Shown: positions 6,613 to 59,808 of the stretch, piece after piece
Position numbering within the stretch: the first letter of the stretch is position 1
How the letters are laid out: each line of letters begins with the position of its first letter
DNA from: Candidatus Magasanikiibacteriota bacterium
GTDB taxonomy: Bacteria; Patescibacteriota; Patescibacteriia; Magasanikbacterales; GWA2-37-8
Direction: 5' to 3'
DNA length: 64,000 bases
NCBI GenBank assembly: GCA_036744835.1
Contig: DAIOHD010000001.1
Location: 208,967-272,966 of the forward strand
Program-made: the position numbers and the translations under genes
Notes under the pieces: generated by a model
The model's database searches: none
The model's input: the letters and a program-made list of their open reading frames with translations, nothing else
Told to the model about the DNA's origin: nothing

Positions 6613-6640
6613 TTGACAAATAATTTAATCTTGATATAAT
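6613..6640 (+). promoter_or_regulatory. Consensus sigma-70 promoter (TTGACA-N16-TGaTATAAT, extended -10) of the rplJL operon
   Basis: -35 at 6613-6618, -10 at 6635-6640 with an upstream TG, about 165 nt upstream of rplJ. Confidence 0.6.
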
Positions 6641-6641
6641 G

Positions 6642-6765
6642 GTTTCACCATAGACAGTAGCTCCCCTTTGGGGTTAAATAAGCTACCGAGGTAATCTCAC
6701 CCAAATTTTTGGGGTCAGGTCGAAGATGACCGTTTTGTCTGTGGTATAACCATAGATTTTTTTTG
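6642..6765 (+). promoter_or_regulatory. Structured 5' leader of rplJ, candidate L10(L12) autoregulatory leader
   Basis: 10-bp closing helix (CCATAGACAG/CTGTCTGTGG, one G-U) enclosing hairpins TAGCT-CCCCTTTGGGG-AGCTA, CCCAAA/TTTGGG and GGTCA/TGACC. Sits between promoter and start codon. Confidence 0.4.
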
Positions 6766-6806
6766 TTAACGCTTAATTTCTAAGCGTTAGCGAGATCTAA
6801 AAAATT

Positions 6807-7378: not shown

Positions 7379-7777
7379 ATGTCAGAAGAAAAAAATGTAG
7401 TTGTTCCTGAAAAGTTTCAATCTTTGGTGGAACAAATTGAAAAATTGTCTGTCTTGGATTTAGCCGAATTGGTTAAAGTCTTAGAAGAAAAATTTGGTGT
7501 TTCTGCTGCTGCTCCAGCTATGATGATGGCCGCTGCCCCAGTTGCCGCTGCTGCTGCTGAAGAAAAAAGCGAATTTAATGTTGAATTAACTAGCTGCGGT
7601 GATAACAAAATCAATGTTATCAAAGCTGTAAAAGAAATTACTGGTTTAGGTCTTGCTGAAGCCAAAGCTTTGGTTGACGCTGCTCCCAAAGTAATTAAAG
7701 AAGGTGTTAAAACTGCCGAAGCTGAAGAAATGAAAAAGAAAATTGAAGAAGCTGGTGGTAAAGTAGAATTGAAATAA
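7379..7777 (+). CDS. rplL: Ribosomal protein L7/L12
   Basis: Ala/Pro hinge plus conserved C-terminal domain ([24 protein letters not shown]...[21 protein letters not shown]). Confidence 0.9.
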
Positions 7778-23365: not shown

Positions 23366-26300
23366 ATGCACAGGAGGGGAAAGTTTTTATTTTTCGCAGG
23401 GCTTATGTTTGCTCTGTTTTTTAATCTACAAAATGTATTTGCTTATGACCACAGTATTGCTCATCCGGGAATAGCTGATTTAGCGGTAAAACTTTATAAC
23501 AGTCAAAATGAAATACAAATTACGGCCCAACAAGTGGAATATATTTTACAAGGATCCAATAATGAAGATTCTCCTGTCCGCTGGTTTAACCATTTTTATG
23601 ATCCGATTTATAATATTGGGTTTAGTGATTTCGTATTTGGAGAAAAACTGGGTATTTTCCCGACCGCACCAGTTTGGCTACAAAGTCCTTATGATCAAAT
23701 ACAGTATTCAGTCGGCGATAGGAGTTGGCAAAGAGCGATAGATGATTACGCTCGTGGAGATGAAGAAAAAGCATTCTTGGGATTAGGACACGCTATCCAT
23801 CTGATATCAGACATGTCCGTACCCGCGCACACTCGCAACAGTGCTCATCCGGGAGATTCATACGAAAGTTTTGTTAAAAGTAATTGGAGTAGTATTGCCC
23901 CAAATCTCAATTATGAATTTAGAGAAATAAATAGCTTACAACAAGCTTTTACAGATTTAGCAAATTATTCCAATAATAATTTTTATTCTGACAGAACTAT
24001 TAAAAACAATAAATATAGCATTGTAAATATAATTGAAAATAATTTAATACAAAATAACAACGGCTTATTTTATAGATATTATTTTTCTAAAATAAACAAT
24101 AAACAATATAAAATTTTTGTAAATAAAAATCCTTTAAAATGGAACGATGAAGAAATTTATGAGCTTGATGATTATTTAGTACTAACCGACTATTCTCAAA
24201 CCCTCATCCCCCAAGCTGTTTCCTACAGCTCTGGTTTGATAAAATTATTTTTACAAGAAGCAGAAGCCAAAAAATCTCAATTACAATATGAAAAAATGTC
24301 TTGGTGGCAAAAAATTAATAATGTATTATTTAACGATGATTTGCCGATAGTTCGTCAAACTGTAGAAGGGTATGTAATGGAAAAAACTCTGGCCCCAGCT
24401 ATTGAATTTGGTGGAGATGTTTTGGATAAAGCCAAAGAAATCAAAGAAACAGTTGAAAAAATTGCGCAAAAAAATCAAGAACCAGAAGTTTATGAAAAAA
24501 TTATACCTGAAGCCAAAGCGGAAGAAGAAAAAACAATAATTATATCATCTACAACATTTACAACACCCACAACACTTATAACAACTACAACATCTTATTA
24601 TTCCAGTGGGGGAGGGTCATCTTATGTTCCACCAACTGTGGAACCTACTACCACACCTGAAATCAACCTTGATTTAGAAACCCCATCCCCGGAACTTTTT
24701 TTGGAATTATTTCAAACCACTACTAGTAATTTTATCACCTTGAATTTTAGCTCCAGCGAAACCTCGTCGCTACCTGTGAGTTTTGAGGGGAAACATAGCA
24801 CTTCTACTTTTTGGAATTCGCTTTTTTCTTGGACTACGTCTACGTTATATATTTTTGAAACAAATAAGAGTGGAGAATATAATTTTCGAGTGCGTGCGAT
24901 TGACGGTGTTTATAATACTTCTACTTGGACAGAAATGTCTGTCACTGTGCCACAAAGAGAGTGCATTTATAGCTATTTAACCGGGGAACAAGAAGATGAT
25001 GAGGTTGTTCTGACTCCGGATAGCAGTCCTTATCTTTTAGATTATTATTATGTATCACCCGGAAAGAAATTGATAATAGAACCTGGGACAGTAATAAAAA
25101 GTTTATCTTATGAGGATGGCGAAAATATTTTTGCTTACGCCAATTTGGATGTAGCCGGAGAATTGGAGATATTGGGCACTTCGGAAAATAAAGTGATTTT
25201 TACTTCTGTTTATGACAATAGTTTTGAAAATGAATGTTTAAATACGTTATCTTTGGCCACTTCAAGCGAACAGGTAATGGGCGGAATTTTGATAGGAGTT
25301 TTTGATACTACTGTTGATTTGAAAAATTTTGAGATGAGACAGTTTGATAGACCGCAACCCCATGTTCAGTTAGCTTCTTTTGGTGGTTTTTATAATGATT
25401 ATATTTATCCTACCAATGAATGTATTATTGTTGAAAATTCGGCTATAAATATTACCGGTGCTGTTTTTAAAGGATGCGGGGGAGAAGGAGCATTACAAAT
25501 AAAAAATTCGCAAGTTACGATAAAAAATAGCCAAATAATATCCGATTTAAACGCTTATGATAATGGTGTGGTAGTAGAAGGGGGCGATTTATTTTTGGAT
25601 ACAGTAAAAATAAGCGGTTATCGTGAATATCCTTTAAAAATTTTAGCGGAAGCAAATTTTCAGTTTATTGATTTATCTTTGGAAAATAATAGAGTTAATG
25701 CTATTTTAAACCCTGAGTTAAAAGGTGATTTAAATTTAAAAAAAGATGAAAATTTTTGGGTTTTAAATAGAGATATTTTGAATAGTTTGTCTTCGTTTAC
25801 AGTTGATCCTGGGGCAAGTTTTTATTATGAAGGAATGGATGGTATATCTTCTAACAAAAATCTATCTCTCATCGGTACGCCAGAAGATAGGATTAAAATA
25901 TATTTACCAAATATTTATGAAAGCGCCATGTCATTTAACGGTACAACAAATATTTTTAAATACGTGGATTTTGTCGGTTTGGAGCCCTATCTAAATACCG
26001 GATTGAAAGATTCATACGGAGTAGAAAATTCTTGGGGCTTAGTTTTGTCGGATTCTTACAGAAGAGAAATTTTAAATTTTAGCAAAAGACGTAGTCAGGG
26101 TTTGATAATCAGAAATGGCAATCTTGTTTTAGAAAATGTCAGATTTTTTAATAGTTTTATTCCGTGGTCTGTCGCTTTGAATTTATATAATTCTACTAGT
26201 TCTTTAAAAGAAGTTTCTTTTATTACGATTAAGCCTTATGGAGAAATTTTTTATTTGGAAGAAGCGGAAAATTTGGGTATTAACGGAGACGGCGGAATTG

Positions 26301-26518
26301 TTGATTTGGATAATGTGAATTTTGCTGATTTGTTTTGTGGTATTCATTCCGATCCGGATTATTATTATGGTTTGATAAAAACCGTAACTACCAACATGTC
26401 GGCAGGTAATTTTGAAAATGTTATTTATAATTTTGTGCCTGAAGATTTGATAATTTTTTCAGTGCCGGAGGAAGAAGTGACCTCAACACCAGAGGGTGAA
26501 GGTGGCTTGGTGGAGTAG
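23366..26518 (+). CDS. Giant secreted protein (1050 aa): zinc phospholipase-C/P1-nuclease-superfamily N-terminal domain, T/S/P linker, C-terminal beta-helix-like region
   Basis: Signal peptide; NHFYDP and HAIHLISDMSVPAH match the Zn-PLC/P1 blocks (HFWDPD and HxxxDMTxPLH); linker TTFTTPTTLITTTTSYYSSGGG. Confidence 0.55.
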   Translation: MHRRGKFLFFAGLMFALFFNLQNVFAYDHSIAHPGIADLAVKLYNSQNEIQITAQQVEYILQGSNNEDSPVRWFNHFYDPIYNIGFSDFVFGEKLGIFPTAPVWLQSPYDQIQYSVGDRSWQRAIDDYARGDEEKAFLGLGHAIHLISDMSVPAHTRNSAHPGDSYESFVKSNWSSIAPNLNYEFREINSLQQAFTDLANYSNNNFYSDRTIKNNKYSIVNIIENNLIQNNNGLFYRYYFSKINNKQYKIFVNKNPLKWNDEEIYELDDYLVLTDYSQTLIPQAVSYSSGLIKLFLQEAEAKKSQLQYEKMSWWQKINNVLFNDDLPIVRQTVEGYVMEKTLAPAIEFGGDVLDKAKEIKETVEKIAQKNQEPEVYEKIIPEAKAEEEKTIIISSTTFTTPTTLITTTTSYYSSGGGSSYVPPTVEPTTTPEINLDLETPSPELFLELFQTTTSNFITLNFSSSETSSLPVSFEGKHSTSTFWNSLFSWTTSTLYIFETNKSGEYNFRVRAIDGVYNTSTWTEMSVTVPQRECIYSYLTGEQEDDEVVLTPDSSPYLLDYYYVSPGKKLIIEPGTVIKSLSYEDGENIFAYANLDVAGELEILGTSENKVIFTSVYDNSFENECLNTLSLATSSEQVMGGILIGVFDTTVDLKNFEMRQFDRPQPHVQLASFGGFYNDYIYPTNECIIVENSAINITGAVFKGCGGEGALQIKNSQVTIKNSQIISDLNAYDNGVVVEGGDLFLDTVKISGYREYPLKILAEANFQFIDLSLENNRVNAILNPELKGDLNLKKDENFWVLNRDILNSLSSFTVDPGASFYYEGMDGISSNKNLSLIGTPEDRIKIYLPNIYESAMSFNGTTNIFKYVDFVGLEPYLNTGLKDSYGVENSWGLVLSDSYRREILNFSKRRSQGLIIRNGNLVLENVRFFNSFIPWSVALNLYNSTSSLKEVSFITIKPYGEIFYLEEAENLGINGDGGIVDLDNVNFADLFCGIHSDPDYYYGLIKTVTTNMSAGNFENVIYNFVPEDLIIFSVPEEEVTSTPEGEGGLVE

Positions 26519-26526
26519 TTTTTATC

Positions 26527-26690
26527 CCCCTCTCTTATTCAAGAGAGGGGCGAGGGGAGAGTCTAAATCCCTCCCTCTGCCCGAGAGGGAGGTTAGGAGG
26601 GAGCGGGAGAGACTCCACCCTAACCCTCCTCTTAAACAAGAGGAGGGAACTTCCCCTCTCTTATTTAAGAGAGGGGTGAGGGGAGAGTCT
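26527..26690. repeat. Array of five GC-rich polypyrimidine/polypurine hairpins (two identical 38-bp units)
   Basis: CCCCTCTCTT-ATTC-AAGAGAGGGG at 26527-26550 and CCCCTCTCTT-ATTT-AAGAGAGGGG at 26653-26676, plus CCTCCCTC/GAGGGAGG, GGAG-AGA-CTCC and CCCTCCTCTT-AAAC-AAGAGGAGGG between them. ORF 26496-26699 is an artefact of this repeat. Confidence 0.55.
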
Positions 26691-26699
26691 TTAACGTAA

Positions 26700-26733
26700 C
26701 AAAAAACTTTCGCTTACCGGCGAAAGTTTTTTG
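26700..26733. terminator. Bidirectional intrinsic terminator between the convergent 1050-aa gene and glyA
   Basis: A-run, ACTTTCGC-TTACCG-GCGAAAGT, T-run. Confidence 0.65.
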
Positions 26734-26770
26734 ATGCTCCATAGCTTTACTGCTTACAAGCTTACTTACT

Positions 26771-28018
26771 TTACTGTAGTTTCGGATAAAGTGGAAATAT
26801 TTTACTCATTTCTAAAACCTTCTTTTTAATTTCCGCCAGTTTTTCCTCATCATCTTTATTTTGTATCACTTCATCAATCCAAGAGGCTATAATTTCCATT
26901 TCTTTTTCTTTCATCCCGCGCGTAGTGAGTGCTGGAGTGCCCAAGCGAATACCGGAAGGATCCATAGCAGTTCTAGTTTCACCAGGAACCATATTTTTAT
27001 TTACTGTAATGCCGGCTTTATCCAGTGCTTTCTGCGCCTCACGCCCTGAAATATTTTTATTACTCAAATCAATCAATAATAAATGGTTATCAGTTTGACC
27101 AAAACAAATAGTATATCCCATTTTTTTAAATTCTATTTCCAACACTTTGGCGTTTTTGACAATTTGTGTTGCGTATTCTTTGAATTCCGGTTCCAGCGCT
27201 TCTTTGAACGCCACAGCTTTGGCTGCAATATTATTTTCATGAGGCCCACCTTGAAATCCCGGGAAAACGGATTTATCAATATCTTTGGCGAATTTTTCTT
27301 TACACATTATCATACCACCGCGAGGTCCGCGAAGAGTTTTGTGAGTGGTTGTGGTAACGATATCAAAATAGGGGACCGGATTTTCCATCACACCTCCGGC
27401 GATAAGTCCGGCGATATGAGCGATATCAGCCATAGTGATAGCTCCAACTTCATCAGCTATTTCTTTGATTTTTTTCCAATCAATATGACGAGAATAAGCC
27501 GAGTAGCCGGCTAAAATAATTTTGGGTTTATTTTCAATCGCCACTTTTTTTAATTCATCATAATCTATCAAACCCTCGCTGTTGGTTTTGTAACGAATGA
27601 AATTAAAAATTTTGGCCATATACGTGACCGGATGGCCATGGGTCAAATGACCCCCATGTTCCAAATCCATGCCAAGCACCGTGTCTCCTGGCTTCAATAA
27701 CGCGAAATAAACGGCTATATTAGCCGGAGCACCCGATAATGGTTGGACATTGACGTGCTCTGCCCCAAAAAGCTCCTTGGCACGGTCTATGGCGGTTTTT
27801 TCCACCTCATCCACGTGTTCACACCCGCCGTAATAACGCTTGCCAACGTAGCCCTCGCTGTACTTGTTAGTCAAAACAGAACCTAGTGCTTGTAGTACGG
27901 CCAAAGATACGAAGTTTTCCGACGGAATCATTTCCAAGCTTTCTTCTTGGCGAGCTTGTTCGTGTTTGATAGATTGGTATATTTCAGGATCAAATTGTAA
28001 TAAGTTTTGGTTATGCAT
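26771..28018 (-). CDS. glyA: Serine hydroxymethyltransferase
   Basis: Full-length SHMT pattern (PSENFVS...; HGGHLTHG; [14 protein letters not shown]). Confidence 0.9.
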
Positions 28019-52711: not shown

Positions 52712-52793
52712 GGGTGGGTACCAAAGTGGTCAAATGGGGCAGACTGTAAATCTGCTGGCTCCGCCTTCGAAGGTTCGAAACCTTCCCCACCCA
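52712..52793 (+). tRNA. tRNA-Tyr (anticodon GTA), long variable arm
   Basis: Acceptor GGGTGGG/CCCACCC, anticodon stem GCAGA/TCTGC, loop CTGTAAA, 13-nt variable arm, T arm GAAGG-TTCGAAA-CCTTC. Confidence 0.8.
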
Positions 52794-52803
52794 CAAGTAA
52801 GAA

Positions 52804-52876
52804 GCCGTCTTAGCTCAGTTGGTAGAGCAGCTGTTTTGTAAACAGCATGTCATGGGTTCGAGTCCCTTAGACGGCT
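52804..52876 (+). tRNA. tRNA-Thr (anticodon TGT)
   Basis: Acceptor GCCGTCT/AGACGGC, D arm GCTCAGTTGGTAGAGC, anticodon stem GCTGT/ACAGC, loop TTTGTAA; U50-U64 mismatch in T stem. Confidence 0.75.
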
Positions 52877-52882
52877 CACTGT

Positions 52883-52955
52883 GCCGTTGTAGCTCAGTTG
52901 GTAGAGCAACTCCATGGTAAGGAGTAGGTCCGCGGTTCAAATCCGCGCAACGGCT
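52883..52955 (+). tRNA. tRNA-Thr (anticodon GGT)
   Basis: Acceptor GCCGTTG/CAACGGC, anticodon stem ACTCC/GGAGT, loop ATGGTAA, perfect T arm CGCGG-TTCAAAT-CCGCG. Confidence 0.75.
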
Positions 52956-52990
52956 CGGAAGTTAATTTAAAATTTAAAATTTATATTTTT

Positions 52991-53155
52991 ATGCCGTCGA
53001 CAAATGCAGATAATATGATTAAATTGGAGTGCACGGAATGTAAGCGTGTAAATTATTTTTCCAATAAAAACAAGAAAATCTTGAAAAATAGATTGGAAAT
53101 GAAAAAACACTGCTTGCACTGTAAGAAACATACTGTACATAAAGAAACAAAGTAA
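52991..53155 (+). CDS. rpmG: Ribosomal protein L33 (54 aa; below ORF-track cut-off)
   Basis: Manual translation [54 protein letters not shown] matches L33 ([11 protein letters not shown]...[20 protein letters not shown]) with its zinc-ribbon Cys pairs. Confidence 0.75.
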
Positions 53156-53189
53156 TGATTAAGGCAGATTTTTTCTGCCTTAATTTATT

Positions 53190-53260
53190 AGGGAGTTCGT
53201 ATAGTGGTAGTACAAGGGTCTCCAAAACCTTTAGCGCGGGTTCGATTCCTGCACTCCCTG
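53190..53260 (+). tRNA. tRNA-Trp (anticodon CCA)
   Basis: Acceptor AGGGAGT/ACTCCCT, D stem GTA/TAC, anticodon stem AGGGT/ACCTT (one G-U), loop CTCCAAA, T arm GCGGG-TTCGATT-CCTGC. Confidence 0.8.
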
Positions 53261-58533: not shown

Positions 58534-59808
58534 ATGGATTTTAATACAAGCAATATAAATATTTCCGGACCGACACCGACCAAAAAAAGAGCGGGAAAAT
58601 ATTTTGGTTTATATCTATCTTTAATTTTATTTATTGTTTCTTTTGGCTTAGGGTTTTTTTCCGGACAATATTATTTTATCCATAAAAATATTATTGATGA
58701 AAACGGAGAAGTGGAACAAACAAAAGTTTTAAAATTAAATAGAATGTTAAATCATTCCGATGAGATTGAATTTGAACAATTTTGGGAAGTTTGGGATAAA
58801 ATAAAAGAAAAATATGTTAAAAAAGATGTTAAAGATGAAGATCTTTTTTATGGTGCGGTACAGGGGTTGGTTTATGCATTAGGAGACCCCTATTCTTTAT
58901 ATTTTCCACCAAAAGCTGCAGACGAATTTTCTAAAGATTTATCAGGAGAACTTGAAGGTATCGGTGCTGAAATAGGTATCAAAAATCAATTATTAACAGT
59001 AATCGCTCCGTTGGCAAACACGCCGGCAGAAAGAGCGGGATTAAGGCCTGGAGATGTTATTTTGCAAATCGGCGAAGAAATTACTTTGGGTATGGATGTT
59101 AATACTGCTGTATCAAAAATTAGAGGTAAGGCTGGTACAGAAGTTATTTTATCAGTTAATAGAAATGAATGGCTTGAACCTAAAGAAATAAAAATTGTTC
59201 GTGCTAAAATAAGTGTTCCGTCAGTTACTTTCAAGATGCAGAATAATGAAGTAGGCTATTTTAGGGTTATGCAGTTTAACGAAGATACGCAAAAACAATT
59301 TGATAAAGGAATCAAAGAACTTCAAAATCGCAGTGGTAAAAAAATAATTTTGGATTTACGAAATAATCCGGGTGGTTATTTGGACCAGGCTATTCGTATG
59401 GCTAGCGAATGGATAGAAAAAGGAGTAGTTGTCAGTGAAAAAGGAAATGATGGCAATAACAAAGAACATGAGACTACCGGTAGTGCGCGTTTACAAAATA
59501 TACAAACAGTAGTTTTGATCAACGGTGGTTCAGCCTCTGCGTCAGAGATCGTTGCCGGGGCTTTGCAAGACAATAAAAAAGCTACCATTATTGGAACAAA
59601 AACTTTTGGTAAGGGTTCAGTACAAGATTTTGAAATGTTTCCTGATGGTTCAGCACTTAAGTTGACAGTTGCTGAATGGTTTACGCCAAACGGAAGAAAT
59701 ATCAATAAAGAAGGGATAGTTCCTGATATTGAAGTGATAGAGGAATGGGATAAAGAGAAAATCGGCGAGGATGTGATGATTGATAAAGCACTCGAGTTGT
59801 TAAAATAG
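58534..59808 (+). CDS. ctpA: S41 carboxyl-terminal processing protease (PDZ plus peptidase), membrane-anchored
   Basis: PDZ (GLRPGDVILQIGEE), S41 blocks (LDLRNNPGGYL; NGGSASASEIVAGALQDN; TFGKGSVQ). Confidence 0.75.
   Translation: MDFNTSNINISGPTPTKKRAGKYFGLYLSLILFIVSFGLGFFSGQYYFIHKNIIDENGEVEQTKVLKLNRMLNHSDEIEFEQFWEVWDKIKEKYVKKDVKDEDLFYGAVQGLVYALGDPYSLYFPPKAADEFSKDLSGELEGIGAEIGIKNQLLTVIAPLANTPAERAGLRPGDVILQIGEEITLGMDVNTAVSKIRGKAGTEVILSVNRNEWLEPKEIKIVRAKISVPSVTFKMQNNEVGYFRVMQFNEDTQKQFDKGIKELQNRSGKKIILDLRNNPGGYLDQAIRMASEWIEKGVVVSEKGNDGNNKEHETTGSARLQNIQTVVLINGGSASASEIVAGALQDNKKATIIGTKTFGKGSVQDFEMFPDGSALKLTVAEWFTPNGRNINKEGIVPDIEVIEEWDKEKIGEDVMIDKALELLK

What the first reader, a model, noticed from the sequence alone, without database searches (positions are those of the whole stretch)
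26527..26690. GC-rich array of five polypyrimidine/polypurine hairpins between convergent genes
The genome is AT-rich, yet this 165-bp block is very GC-rich. It is a run of perfect hairpins whose stems are homopyrimidine on one arm and homopurine on the other:
- CCCCTCTCTT/AAGAGAGGGG, present twice within two near-identical 38-bp units
- CCTCCCTC/GAGGGAGG
- GGAG/CTCC
- CCCTCCTCTT/AAGAGGAGGG

A classical bidirectional terminator follows immediately.

Such Pu/Py mirror hairpins can form triplex or H-DNA. Candidate roles are a stable small RNA, an mRNA 3'-end stabiliser for both convergent transcripts, or a REP-like protein-binding array. The apparent 67-aa ORF here (repeated PLLFKRG.RGES) is a translation artefact of the repeat.
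Basis: seen in the sequence. Interest (0 to 1): 0.55.

Follow-up and report, generated by a model that had tools for sequence, protein, structure and literature searches.

The report
Triplex-motif DNA repeat array (BoxC-like)
The GC-rich block is a cluster of four copies of a known bacterial DNA repeat that can fold into a hairpin plus a third strand, and following it up showed that these repeats sit next to genes for one small nuclease family (DUF559) in several bacterial phyla, a possible clue to how they spread.

Summary
Window 26527-26690 carries four perfect homopyrimidine/homopurine hairpins, the only ones in 64 kb. The fifth, GGAG/CTCC, is trivial.

Each hairpin is followed by a 3-nt linker and a purine tract that mirrors the purine arm with 8-9 perfect G*G-C, A*A-T or T*A-T triads. 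These are G/C-rich class II intrastrand triplex motifs (TMs), the known BoxC / PIT / TMECO kind (Holder 2015), here in a Magasanikbacteria-like CPR genome. They do not match the E. coli consensus. Function is unknown in the literature.

New here:
- Close relatives carry a DUF559 (Vsr-like, EDxHD) endonuclease gene inside the same array. The indel is bounded by 38-nt direct TM repeats.
- 6 of 120 TM loci from several phyla have a DUF559 gene abutting the TM.
- Of 97 metagenomic DUF559 genes chosen by a coding motif alone, 44 have a TM within 200 nt, against 6 of 255 control ORFs. TM density is about 110-fold higher near the gene. The usual layout is sense TM, gene, antisense TM.
- E. coli ycjD has a TMECO 167 nt downstream.

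Best reading: a non-autonomous TM array, REP/RAYT-like, with DUF559 as the partner nuclease. That link is inferred, not shown.

The parts
26527..26562 (+). TM unit u1 (class II intrastrand triplex motif). Y arm 26527-36 CCCCTCTCTT; loop1 ATTC; R arm 26541-50 AAGAGAGGGG; loop2 CGA; reverse-Hoogsteen (RH) tract 26554-62 GGGGAGAGT. The conserved unit runs on to 26564 (..TCT).
   Evidence: 10-bp perfect stem, 9 perfect triads, no mismatch.
26570..26603 (+). TM unit u2. Y arm 26570-78 CCTCCCTCT; loop1 GCCCG; R arm 26584-92 AGAGGGAGG; loop2 TTA; RH 26596-603 GGAGGGAG.
   Evidence: 9-bp stem, 8 perfect triads. The same unit type recurs at this and other sites in relatives.
26612..26647 (-). TM unit u3, on the minus strand. 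Read 5'-3' on that strand: Y CCCTCCTCTT (26647-38), loop1 GTTT, R AAGAGGAGGG (26633-24), loop2 TTA, RH GGGTGGAGT (26620-12).
   Evidence: (I2), 21: 9 perfect triads, including T*A-T. It forms an inverted pair with u4, and the two tails are 9/11 complementary.
26653..26690 (+). TM unit u4. Y 26653-62; loop1 ATTT; R 26667-76; loop2 TGA; RH 26680-88; then ..CT. This 38-nt unit is the direct repeat that bounds the DUF559 cassette in relatives. The junction is placed at 26690/26691 but is ambiguous across the repeat.
26606..26616 (.). It is not a unit.
   Evidence: no TM is called here, and it overlaps the RH tract of u3.
26700..26733 (.). Bidirectional intrinsic-terminator-like hairpin, CAAAAAACTTTCGC-TTACCG-GCGAAAGTTTTTTG, shared by the convergent genes.
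   Evidence: I4, 14-nt perfect arms. Conserved in relatives. Not listed by the consensus scan.
26496..26699 (+). 67-aa ORF. It is a translation artefact of the repeat array.
   Evidence: Its only hit is the repeat-encoded C-terminal tail of relatives' DUF559 proteins (E = 8e-4).
23366..26518 (+). Upstream flanking gene: 1050-aa ORF with no Pfam hit on record. Its stop codon ends 8 nt before u1.
26771..28018 (-). Convergent flanking gene glyA (serine hydroxymethyltransferase).
   Evidence: The nearest named homologues are Candidatus Magasanikbacteria / Patescibacteria.

Best explanation
**What it is.** The block is an array of four copies (three on the + strand, one on the - strand) of a G/C-rich class II intrastrand triplex motif (TM). 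This is the repeat kind described as BoxC, PIT elements or TMECO.

**How a unit folds.** Each roughly 36-nt unit reads pyrimidine arm, loop, purine arm, 3-nt linker, purine-rich tail. When that strand is single-stranded, the two arms form a hairpin. The tail can then lie back in the major groove, antiparallel to the purine arm, forming G*G-C, A*A-T and T*A-T triads.

**What it is not.** It is non-coding DNA-level repeat material. It is not a gene and not a dedicated RNA.

**Partner nuclease.** These repeats are the cis partners of small DUF559 (Vsr-like PD-(D/E)xK, 'EDxHD') endonuclease genes. The full module is sense TM, DUF559 gene, antisense TM. Solo TMs and TM arrays are its non-autonomous relatives, as REP/BIME elements are to RAYT genes. 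The window shows the DUF559-less allele of such a site. Close relatives have the nuclease gene inside the same array, and the difference is an indel bounded by two direct 38-nt TM copies.

**Shown:**
- the motif anatomy;
- the triad covariation;
- the cross-phylum TM-DUF559 association and its geometry;
- the indel.

**Inferred:**
- that the triplex forms in vivo;
- that the DUF559 protein binds or cuts TMs;
- that this drives spread or rearrangement;
- the direction of the indel (loss or gain).
For: **Motif**
- All four units pass an ITxF-like scan with 8-9 perfect triads. Nothing else in the 64 kb does.
- Shuffles of the local block never gave more than one motif: 1992 of 2000 gave none.
- With each tail's composition held fixed, the chance of 8 or more triads is 0.004-0.02 per unit.

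**Covariation across phyla**
- Among 114 distinct pattern matches in GTDB genomes, 64 have 8 or more consecutive triads. Permuting tails between loci gave a mean of 21.7 and a maximum of 35.
- A in the purine arm pairs with A or T in the tail, and G with G.

**Literature**
- The same architecture, with a 3-nt loop 2 that is often TTA, intergenic position, both orientations and inverted pairs, is described for BoxC/PIT/TMECO. CD and NMR show the triplex in vitro (PMC4666352).

**DUF559 link**
1. Relatives with 89-90% identical SHMT have a 138-140 aa DUF559/MTES_1575 gene inside the array (Pfam E = 1.6e-28). The alignment shows a roughly 640-nt indel bounded by direct TM copies.
2. Six of 120 TM-selected loci carry a DUF559 gene: three Patescibacteria (CPR) lineages (Peribacteria, Saccharibacteria and one unclassified MAG), two Bacteroidota and one Geobacteraceae. 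In every case it directly abuts TMs, and there is none elsewhere in about 900 kb.
3. In the reverse test, 123 DUF559 genes were fetched from metagenomes by a coding motif only.
   - 44 of 97 have a TM within 200 nt, and 17 have one on both sides.
   - Control ORFs: 6 of 255.
   - TM density is 2.15/kb near the gene and 0.019/kb further than 500 nt away.
   - There were 0 false positives in 610 kb of shuffles.
   - A relaxed scan gives 54 of 97.
4. In 14 of 18 two-sided cases the layout is sense upstream and antisense downstream, abutting the start and stop codons. The two flanking TMs resemble each other more than permuted pairs do: 0.86 against 0.65.
5. E. coli K-12 ycjD (DUF559) has TMECO no. 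9 lying 167 nt downstream.
6. Two homologues picked by protein similarity alone are also TM-flanked.
7. Independent hint: DUF559 genes are 14-fold enriched among predicted programmed-inversion targets (PMC9881135).
Against: - There is no DUF559 gene in this 64-kb window, and only one TM cluster in it.
- Only 5% of TM-selected loci have a DUF559 gene. About half of DUF559 genes show no TM.
- There is no direct evidence of transposition.
  - Identical DUF559 proteins were always found in the same neighbourhood across samples.
  - No near-identical modules turned up in different contexts.
- The metagenome sample covers only the DFYC..IE[IV]DG subfamily.
- The association would also arise if DUF559 genes home into pre-existing TM arrays, or if TMs regulate DUF559 expression.
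- In E. coli the triplex was not detected in vivo by DMS footprinting. The authors found no mobility genes near TMECOs.
- The purine-motif triplex is reported not to form in RNA, so any RNA-level role would rest on the hairpins alone.
Confidence: 0.72

Rival explanations
1. RNA-level 3'-UTR element. The array is transcribed as the tail of the 1050-aa gene's mRNA. Its very stable hairpins protect the 3' end from exonucleases or help termination, as REP elements can. The third tract and the DUF559 link would then be incidental.
For: - The array starts 8 nt after the stop codon and lies upstream of the shared terminator.
- Predicted RNA folding is -118 kcal/mol, with z = -8.2.
- Three of the four units are sense to that gene.
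Against: - The model does not explain the mirror covariation of the tail.
- It does not explain the unit in reverse orientation.
- It does not explain the differences in copy number and order between close relatives.
- PIT elements showed no terminator or promoter activity in E. coli, according to Holder et al..
- TMs occur upstream as well as downstream of genes.
Confidence: 0.12
2. DUF559 genes are homing-type nucleases that insert into pre-existing TM arrays. TMs are their targets, not their own termini or progeny. TMs arise and spread by a separate mechanism, such as replication slippage, recombination, or selection for a structural role.
For: - The DUF559/Vsr clade includes a bona fide homing endonuclease family, EDxHD.
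- The window and its relatives look like an empty site and a filled site within an array.
- TMs greatly outnumber DUF559 genes.
Against: - The flanking TMs are complete units abutting the start and stop codons in a consistent inverted layout. They are not split half-sites.
- Three loci (L175, L194, L241) share the same pairing of distinct left and right TM types. This looks like element ends.
- The present data cannot exclude this rival.
Confidence: 0.12
3. A structured small RNA gene or a protein-coding mini-gene (the 67-aa ORF).
For: - An ORF of 67 aa exists.
- Folding is strong.
Against: - No Rfam family reaches its gathering score. The sub-threshold hits are miRNA or sRNA models hitting any long hairpin.
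- No promoter-like site lies upstream of the array on either strand within the scanned 26000-27200 region.
- The ORF's sequence is repeat-encoded, and the array is rearranged between relatives.
Confidence: 0.03

Closest known systems
BoxC / PIT (potential intrastrand triplex) elements / TMECO of E. coli and G/C-rich TMs of cyanobacteria (Bachellier et al. 1990s; Hoyne et al. 2000; Holder et al. 2015, PMC4666352)
   Same: - The architecture is the same class II: Y arm of 9-10 nt, loop of 3-6, R arm, loop of 3 (TTA in two of four units, as in TMECO type A), then a reverse-Hoogsteen tract.
- It is G/C-rich and intergenic.
- Units occur in both orientations and as inverted pairs.
- Copy number varies between close relatives.
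   Different: - The sequence differs: CCCCTCTCTT / CCCTCCTCTT / CCTCCCTCT stems rather than CCCTCNCCC. The strict TMECO pattern gives 0 matches.
- The host is an AT-rich CPR bacterium, whereas TMECO was reported from Proteobacteria.
- Four units are packed into 164 bp.
- The link to DUF559 genes found here is not in that literature, which states that no mobility functions were found nearby.
REP/BIME elements and their RAYT transposases (REPtrons/REPINs)
   Same: - Both are short, structured intergenic repeats.
- Both occur singly or in mosaics of alternating orientation.
- Both greatly outnumber a small nuclease-type gene that is itself bracketed by inverted copies of the repeat.
   Different: - The bracketed gene is a PD-(D/E)xK (DUF559) nuclease, not a Y1 HUH transposase.
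- The repeat is a homopurine/homopyrimidine hairpin with a triplex-forming tail, not a GTAG-headed imperfect palindrome.
- Mobilisation has not been shown.
Vsr and EDxHD homing endonucleases (I-Bth0305I family) / DUF559 proteins such as E. coli YcjD and PDB 3HRL
   Same: - The relatives' gene is a DUF559 family member (Pfam E = 1.6e-28; 3HRL E = 2.6e-14).
- It has the invariant D..E.DG..H..D core.
- The clade contains site-specific nicking and homing enzymes.
   Different: - It is free-standing, about 120-140 aa, and not inside an intron or intein.
- No partner methyltransferase is encoded beside it in the loci read.
- It is bracketed by triplex motifs.
H-DNA (intramolecular triplex of duplex mirror repeats)
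   Same: It shows the same homopurine/homopyrimidine mirror symmetry and the same purine-motif triads.
   Different: All three strands here come from one DNA strand (hairpin plus fold-back). Formation therefore needs single-stranded DNA rather than supercoil-driven unpairing of a long duplex tract.

Membership tests
Class II (purine-motif) intrastrand triplex motif / PIT element (ITxF definition, Holder 2015) | One strand reads 5'-pyrimidine stem, loop (1-6), purine stem, loop (1-6), third stem. Stems are 6-15 nt with at most one mismatch. | tested here: met
   four units, stems of 9-10, loop 1 of 4-5, loop 2 of 3, no mismatch.
Class II (purine-motif) intrastrand triplex motif / PIT element (ITxF definition, Holder 2015) | The third tract, read antiparallel to the purine arm, gives only G*G-C, A*A-T or T*A-T triads, beyond what composition alone would give. 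| tested here: met
   - 8-9 perfect triads per unit.
- P = 0.004-0.02 per unit with tail composition fixed.
- Cross-phylum covariation: 64 of 114 against a permuted maximum of 35.
Class II (purine-motif) intrastrand triplex motif / PIT element (ITxF definition, Holder 2015) | G/C content of the stems above 50% (the G/C-rich subclass that is over-represented relative to scrambled genomes). | tested here: met
   0.60-0.67, in a window with 34.6% GC.
Class II (purine-motif) intrastrand triplex motif / PIT element (ITxF definition, Holder 2015) | A multi-copy repeat dispersed over intergenic sites of the genome. | tested here: inconclusive
   - There is only one cluster in the 64-kb window.
- The close relative L123 has the same unit types at two further intergenic sites.
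- The rest of this genome was not available.
Class II (purine-motif) intrastrand triplex motif / PIT element (ITxF definition, Holder 2015) | The isolated strand folds into a triplex (CD, NMR, melting). | not testable with these tools
   This has been shown only for E. coli TMECO oligonucleotides in the literature.
TMECO / BoxC in the strict sense | Matches the consensus CCCTCNCCC N3-6 GGGNGAGGG N3 GGGNGAGGG. | tested here: not met
   0 matches in the window. The same pattern finds TMECO no. 9 in the E. coli control locus.
REP/BIME-RAYT system | The associated gene bracketed by the repeats is a RAYT (IS200/IS605-like Y1 HUH transposase). | tested here: not met
   The bracketed gene in relatives and in other phyla is DUF559 / MTES_1575, a PD-(D/E)xK fold.
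REP/BIME-RAYT system | Short intergenic palindromic units clustered in alternating orientation. | tested here: met
   units in + + - + order within 164 bp, between convergent genes.
Intrinsic (Rho-independent) terminator | A G/C-rich hairpin followed directly by a T/U run. | tested here: not met
   - No T run follows any TM hairpin.
- The scan's four hits are cross-unit pseudo-hairpins.
- The separate hairpin at 26700-26733 does have the A6/T6 layout.
Any curated RNA family (Rfam 15) | A covariance-model score at or above the family's gathering threshold. | tested here: not met
   the best sub-threshold hit is Scr5676, at 43 bits against a gathering score of 56.

The most novel reading that the evidence does not exclude
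Intrastrand-triplex repeats (BoxC/PIT/TM), which have had no assigned function since the 1990s, may be the cis elements of an unrecognised selfish module found in at least three phyla plus E. coli. The module would be a DUF559/EDxHD PD-(D/E)xK nuclease gene bracketed by inverted triplex motifs. Solo TMs and arrays such as this one would be its non-autonomous progeny. That would be a REP-RAYT-like partnership built on a different nuclease fold and on triplex-structured single-stranded DNA ends.
Probability: 0.4. Interest if true: 0.85.

Novelty: new member of a known kind. Interest (0 to 1): 0.6.

Why it matters
The array itself is one more instance, in a candidate-phyla-radiation genome, of a repeat class that is known but not understood.

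The value lies in what the locus led to.
- There is a strong, reproducible association across several phyla between these triplex motifs and DUF559 endonuclease genes.
- The layout is consistent: sense TM, gene, antisense TM.
- A pair of alleles with and without the gene exists in close relatives.
- Both partners are orphans. BoxC/PIT elements have no known origin or function, and DUF559 is a very common 'domain of unknown function'.
- The link yields direct experiments in E. coli, using YcjD and its 23 TMECOs.
- It also bears on why TM loci are rearrangement hot spots, and why DUF559 genes show up as inversion targets.

Tried and rejected
- **Rfam.** The gathering-threshold search of the whole window and the E-value search of 26400-26800 returned only sub-threshold hairpin-type hits such as miRNA models and Scr5676. 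An RNA-family reading was rejected.
- **Consensus promoter/terminator scan.** It found only cross-unit pseudo-hairpins and missed the real A6/T6 hairpin.
- **The search for related loci with a six-protein DUF559 alignment.** It failed because no stretch was conserved enough. I replaced it with a hand-made degenerate coding pattern.
- **Search for direct proof of mobility.**
  - Look-ups of identical DUF559 proteins (P0139, P0187) returned the same neighbourhood in many samples.
  - All-against-all blastn of DUF559 loci found no near-identical modules in different contexts.
  - The element boundaries could therefore not be mapped.
- **Strict TMECO consensus.** It gave no match in the window.
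- **The 38-nt hairpin insert seen inside TMs of relatives.** It is absent from the window.
- **G-quadruplex reading.** I did not pursue it. Each unit has only two G-runs, and NMR excluded a quadruplex for TMECO.
- **Chimeric assembly junction.** Rejected on the basis of independent assemblies.

Full report
**1. The observation**

- Four perfect hairpins with a homopyrimidine 5' arm and a homopurine 3' arm lie at 26527-50, 26570-92, 26624-47 and 26653-76.
- They are the only G/C-rich hairpins of this kind with a stem of 8 or more in the 64-kb window.
- The two 38-nt units differ at two positions, and no shuffle of the window reproduces them.
- GC reaches 0.55, against a window mean of 0.346.
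- The block sits between the stop of a 1050-aa ORF (26518, +) and glyA (26771-28018, -). A hairpin flanked by A6 and T6 follows at 26700-26733.
- The same array is present in two independent assemblies, so it is not a chimeric junction.

**2. Anatomy: a third domain**

Each hairpin is followed by a 3-nt linker (CGA, TTA, TTA, TGA) and then a purine-rich tract. That tract is the mirror image, not the complement, of the purine arm.
- Read antiparallel to the purine arm, it gives 9, 8, 9 and 9 consecutive G*G-C, A*A-T or T*A-T triads with no mismatch.
- The unit at 26612-26647 is the same design on the minus strand. The array therefore runs + + - +.
- No other such motif occurs on either strand of the window.
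- Dinucleotide shuffles of the local block gave none in 1992 of 2000 trials and never more than one.
- With each tail's own composition held fixed, 8 or more triads arise with P = 0.004-0.02 per unit.
- As single-stranded DNA or RNA the block folds far better than shuffles, with z = -9.0 and -8.2.
- In those folds the tails of the inverted pair u3/u4 also pair with each other.

**3. It is a widespread, known kind of repeat**

The hosts include:
- CPR lineages;
- Cyanobacteria;
- Bacteroidota;
- Alpha-, Gamma- and Deltaproteobacteria;
- Acinetobacter and Geomonas;
- Nitrospirota, Planctomycetota, Dehalococcoidia and Bacillota.

In those hits the part of the tail that the pattern did not fix covaries with the stem in the mirror sense.
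- 64 of 114 distinct sequences have 8 or more consecutive triads. With tails permuted among loci the mean is 21.7 and the maximum 35.
- A in the arm goes with A or T in the tail, and G with G.

A literature search found the description. Holder et al. 2015 (PMC4666352) treat 'intrastrand triplex motifs'. The G/C-rich class II form was first noted as BoxC in E. coli and later as PIT elements. The following points come:
- The TMECO consensus is CCCTCNCCC N3-6 GGGNGAGGG N3 GGGNGAGGG, and loop 2 is TTA or CCG.
- There are 23 copies in MG1655. All are intergenic, on both strands, and five sites hold inverted pairs.
- The triplex was shown by CD and NMR in vitro but was not seen by DMS footprinting in vivo.
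- Earlier work found no promoter or terminator activity.
- The loci are unusually variable between strains.
- The authors found no mobility genes nearby.

The window's units meet every sequence-level criterion of the class, but not the E. coli consensus. No Rfam family matches.

**4. The organism and the locus in relatives**

SHMT homologues place the window in a Magasanikbacteria-like Patescibacteria lineage. Relatives with 89-90% identical SHMT keep the same gene order and the same three TM unit types downstream of glyA. However, they carry a 138-140-aa gene inside the array. It is a DUF559 / MTES_1575 family member (Pfam E = 1.6e-28; nearest solved structure 3HRL).

The alignment gives these layouts:
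- **Relatives:** u1+ u2+ u3- u4'+ | DUF559 | u3- u3- u4+.
- **Window:** u1+ u2+ u3- u4+.

The difference is a roughly 640-nt indel bounded by two direct 38-nt TM copies.
- This could be recombination between the copies, removing the gene.
- It could equally be insertion next to a TM. The direction cannot be told.

The DUF559 reading frame runs into the downstream TM. This is why the window's spurious 67-aa ORF weakly 'matches' that protein.

Relatives also differ from each other.
- The number of u3 copies varies.
- A 37-38-nt hairpin insert sits at the same position within the pyrimidine arm of the u3-type unit, but in different u3 copies in different relatives.
- Extra TMs occur at neighbouring intergenic sites that are TM-free in the window.

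A more distant relative (84% SHMT identity) has no TM at this site.

**5. Is the DUF559 neighbour a coincidence?**

Forward test. A local profile search of all ORFs in the 120 TM-selected loci found DUF559 genes in six: three Patescibacteria (CPR) lineages (Peribacteria, Saccharibacteria and one unclassified MAG), two Bacteroidota, and Citrifermentans.
- In all six the gene is directly flanked by lineage-specific TMs.
- There is no DUF559 gene anywhere else in those roughly 900 kb.

Reverse test. I fetched 120 metagenome loci using only a degenerate coding pattern for the catalytic motif DFYC-x6-IE[IV]DG. This yielded 123 confirmed DUF559 ORFs. I then scanned them with a tolerant TM scanner that gave no hit in 610 kb of shuffles. 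It found 127 TMs.

| Measure | Result |
|---|---|
| TMs within 150 nt of a DUF559 domain | 98 of 127 |
| DUF559 genes (both flanks present) with a TM within 200 nt | 44 of 97 |
| DUF559 genes with a TM on both sides | 17 of 97 |
| Control ORFs on the same contigs with a TM within 200 nt | 6 of 255 |
| TM density near the gene / more than 500 nt away | 2.15 / 0.019 per kb |
| Contigs of 6 kb or more, near / far | 33 in 28.6 kb / 5 in 338.6 kb |
| Relaxed scan: a TM on at least one side / on both sides | 54 / 29 of 97 |

Geometry.
- The proximal upstream TM is mostly sense and lies 0-25 nt before the N-terminus.
- The proximal downstream TM is mostly antisense and overlaps the stop codon or lies within 25 nt of it.
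- 14 of 18 two-sided cases are sense/antisense.
- The two TMs of a gene resemble each other more than permuted pairs do (0.86 against 0.65).
- Three loci (L175, L194, L241) share the same pairing of distinct left and right TM types.

Further cases.
- E. coli K-12's ycjD is annotated as DUF559. TMECO no. 9 lies 167 nt downstream on the same strand. With 18 TMECO sites in 4.6 Mb, that is roughly a 0.2% coincidence for any one gene.
- Two further homologues chosen by protein similarity alone (L252, L260) are also TM-flanked.

Literature.
- Nothing in the searchable library links DUF559 to these repeats.
- DUF559 genes are reported as 14-fold enriched among predicted programmed-inversion targets (PMC9881135). 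That fits genes bracketed by inverted repeats.
- The DUF559/Vsr clade includes the EDxHD homing endonucleases.

**6. Most likely explanation**

The array is a cluster of non-coding DNA repeats of the intrastrand-triplex class.
- The selected feature is the three-domain fold of one DNA strand. Only a Hoogsteen-type rule explains mirror covariation with A/T equivalence.
- Watson-Crick pairing, protein half-sites and translation do not explain it.

I infer that the repeats are the cis partners of DUF559 nucleases.
- The autonomous form is TM, DUF559, inverted TM.
- Solo TMs and arrays are derivatives or landing pads.
- The window shows the gene-less allele.

The individual steps stand as follows:
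- Triplex formation in vivo is inferred.
- Nuclease action on TMs is inferred.
- Mobility is inferred. I found no case of the same module in two contexts.

The main rivals are two. DUF559 genes may home into pre-existing TM arrays. Alternatively, the array's local effect may be only that of stable 3'-UTR hairpins. Neither is excluded.

**7. Verdict**

- The element is a new member, in a CPR genome and with a different stem sequence, of a known repeat kind.
- The DUF559 association appears unreported in the literature I could search. If the mechanistic reading holds, it would give both BoxC/PIT repeats and DUF559 proteins a function that can be tested directly in E. coli.

Noticed in passing
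L125 about 7390-7460, L126, L127 and L128 about 7420-7480, L123 about 7900-7950 (relatives; absent from the window): A 37-38-nt hairpin (CTTCCACACACCAGAGCAAAGCTCGGTGTGGGACTTCG) is inserted at the same position within the pyrimidine arm of the u3-type unit (CCCTCC^TCTT in window orientation). It sits in different u3 copies in different relatives. This suggests a second, nested mini-element, or gene conversion between TM copies.
   Followed up: partly
L011, L029, L031, L044, L047, L053, L073, L083, L095, L121 (gut alphaproteobacterial MAGs): Here the TM is embedded in a conserved, multi-copy non-coding element of about 250-300 nt. The shared flanks include ..GCCCTTTGCGAATAGCTTAGGTTTTGGAGCAAAA.. 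upstream and ..GCCCTTTAACGAGTACTTCTTAGTCTTTGTGAAAAAG.. downstream. It occurs on several contigs of a single MAG, for example four contigs of one bin and five of another. It may be a MITE or a structured RNA that contains a TM.
   Followed up: partly
L021, L060, L074, L113 (Parcubacteria ADurb.Bin192): One TM type (CCCTCTCTTGGGTAAGAGAGGGTTAGGGTGAGTTA) recurs with conserved flanks on both sides at several sites of one genome. This suggests a larger repeat unit.
   Followed up: no
L260-L267, 2285-4873: In a KSB1-like population, a TM-flanked DUF559 gene sits between a histidine-kinase gene and its sigma-54 response-regulator gene. It lies inside what looks like a two-component operon.
   Followed up: no
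Protein table: A large share of DUF559 homologues lie on very short contigs of 0.5-2 kb. This would be expected if assemblies break at flanking repeats or at multi-copy modules.
   Followed up: no
window 59356-59659 (-): There is an Rfam hit to Rickettsia sRNA47 (Rp_sR47): 68 bits against a gathering score of 60. It lies antisense to a 424-aa ORF at 58534-59808. It is probably coding-sequence conservation rather than an sRNA.
   Followed up: partly
window 6630-6772 (+); 52712-53260 (+); 12689-12762 (-): The window also holds a ribosomal protein L10 leader, a cluster of four tRNA genes and a further single tRNA gene. These are ordinary features.
   Followed up: no
window 12430-12453 and 12621-12642: The same 8-bp-stem hairpin (ACGACTCA-AATTAT-TGAGTCGT) occurs twice, 190 nt apart, just upstream of the tRNA at 12689. 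It is a local direct repeat of unknown meaning.
   Followed up: no
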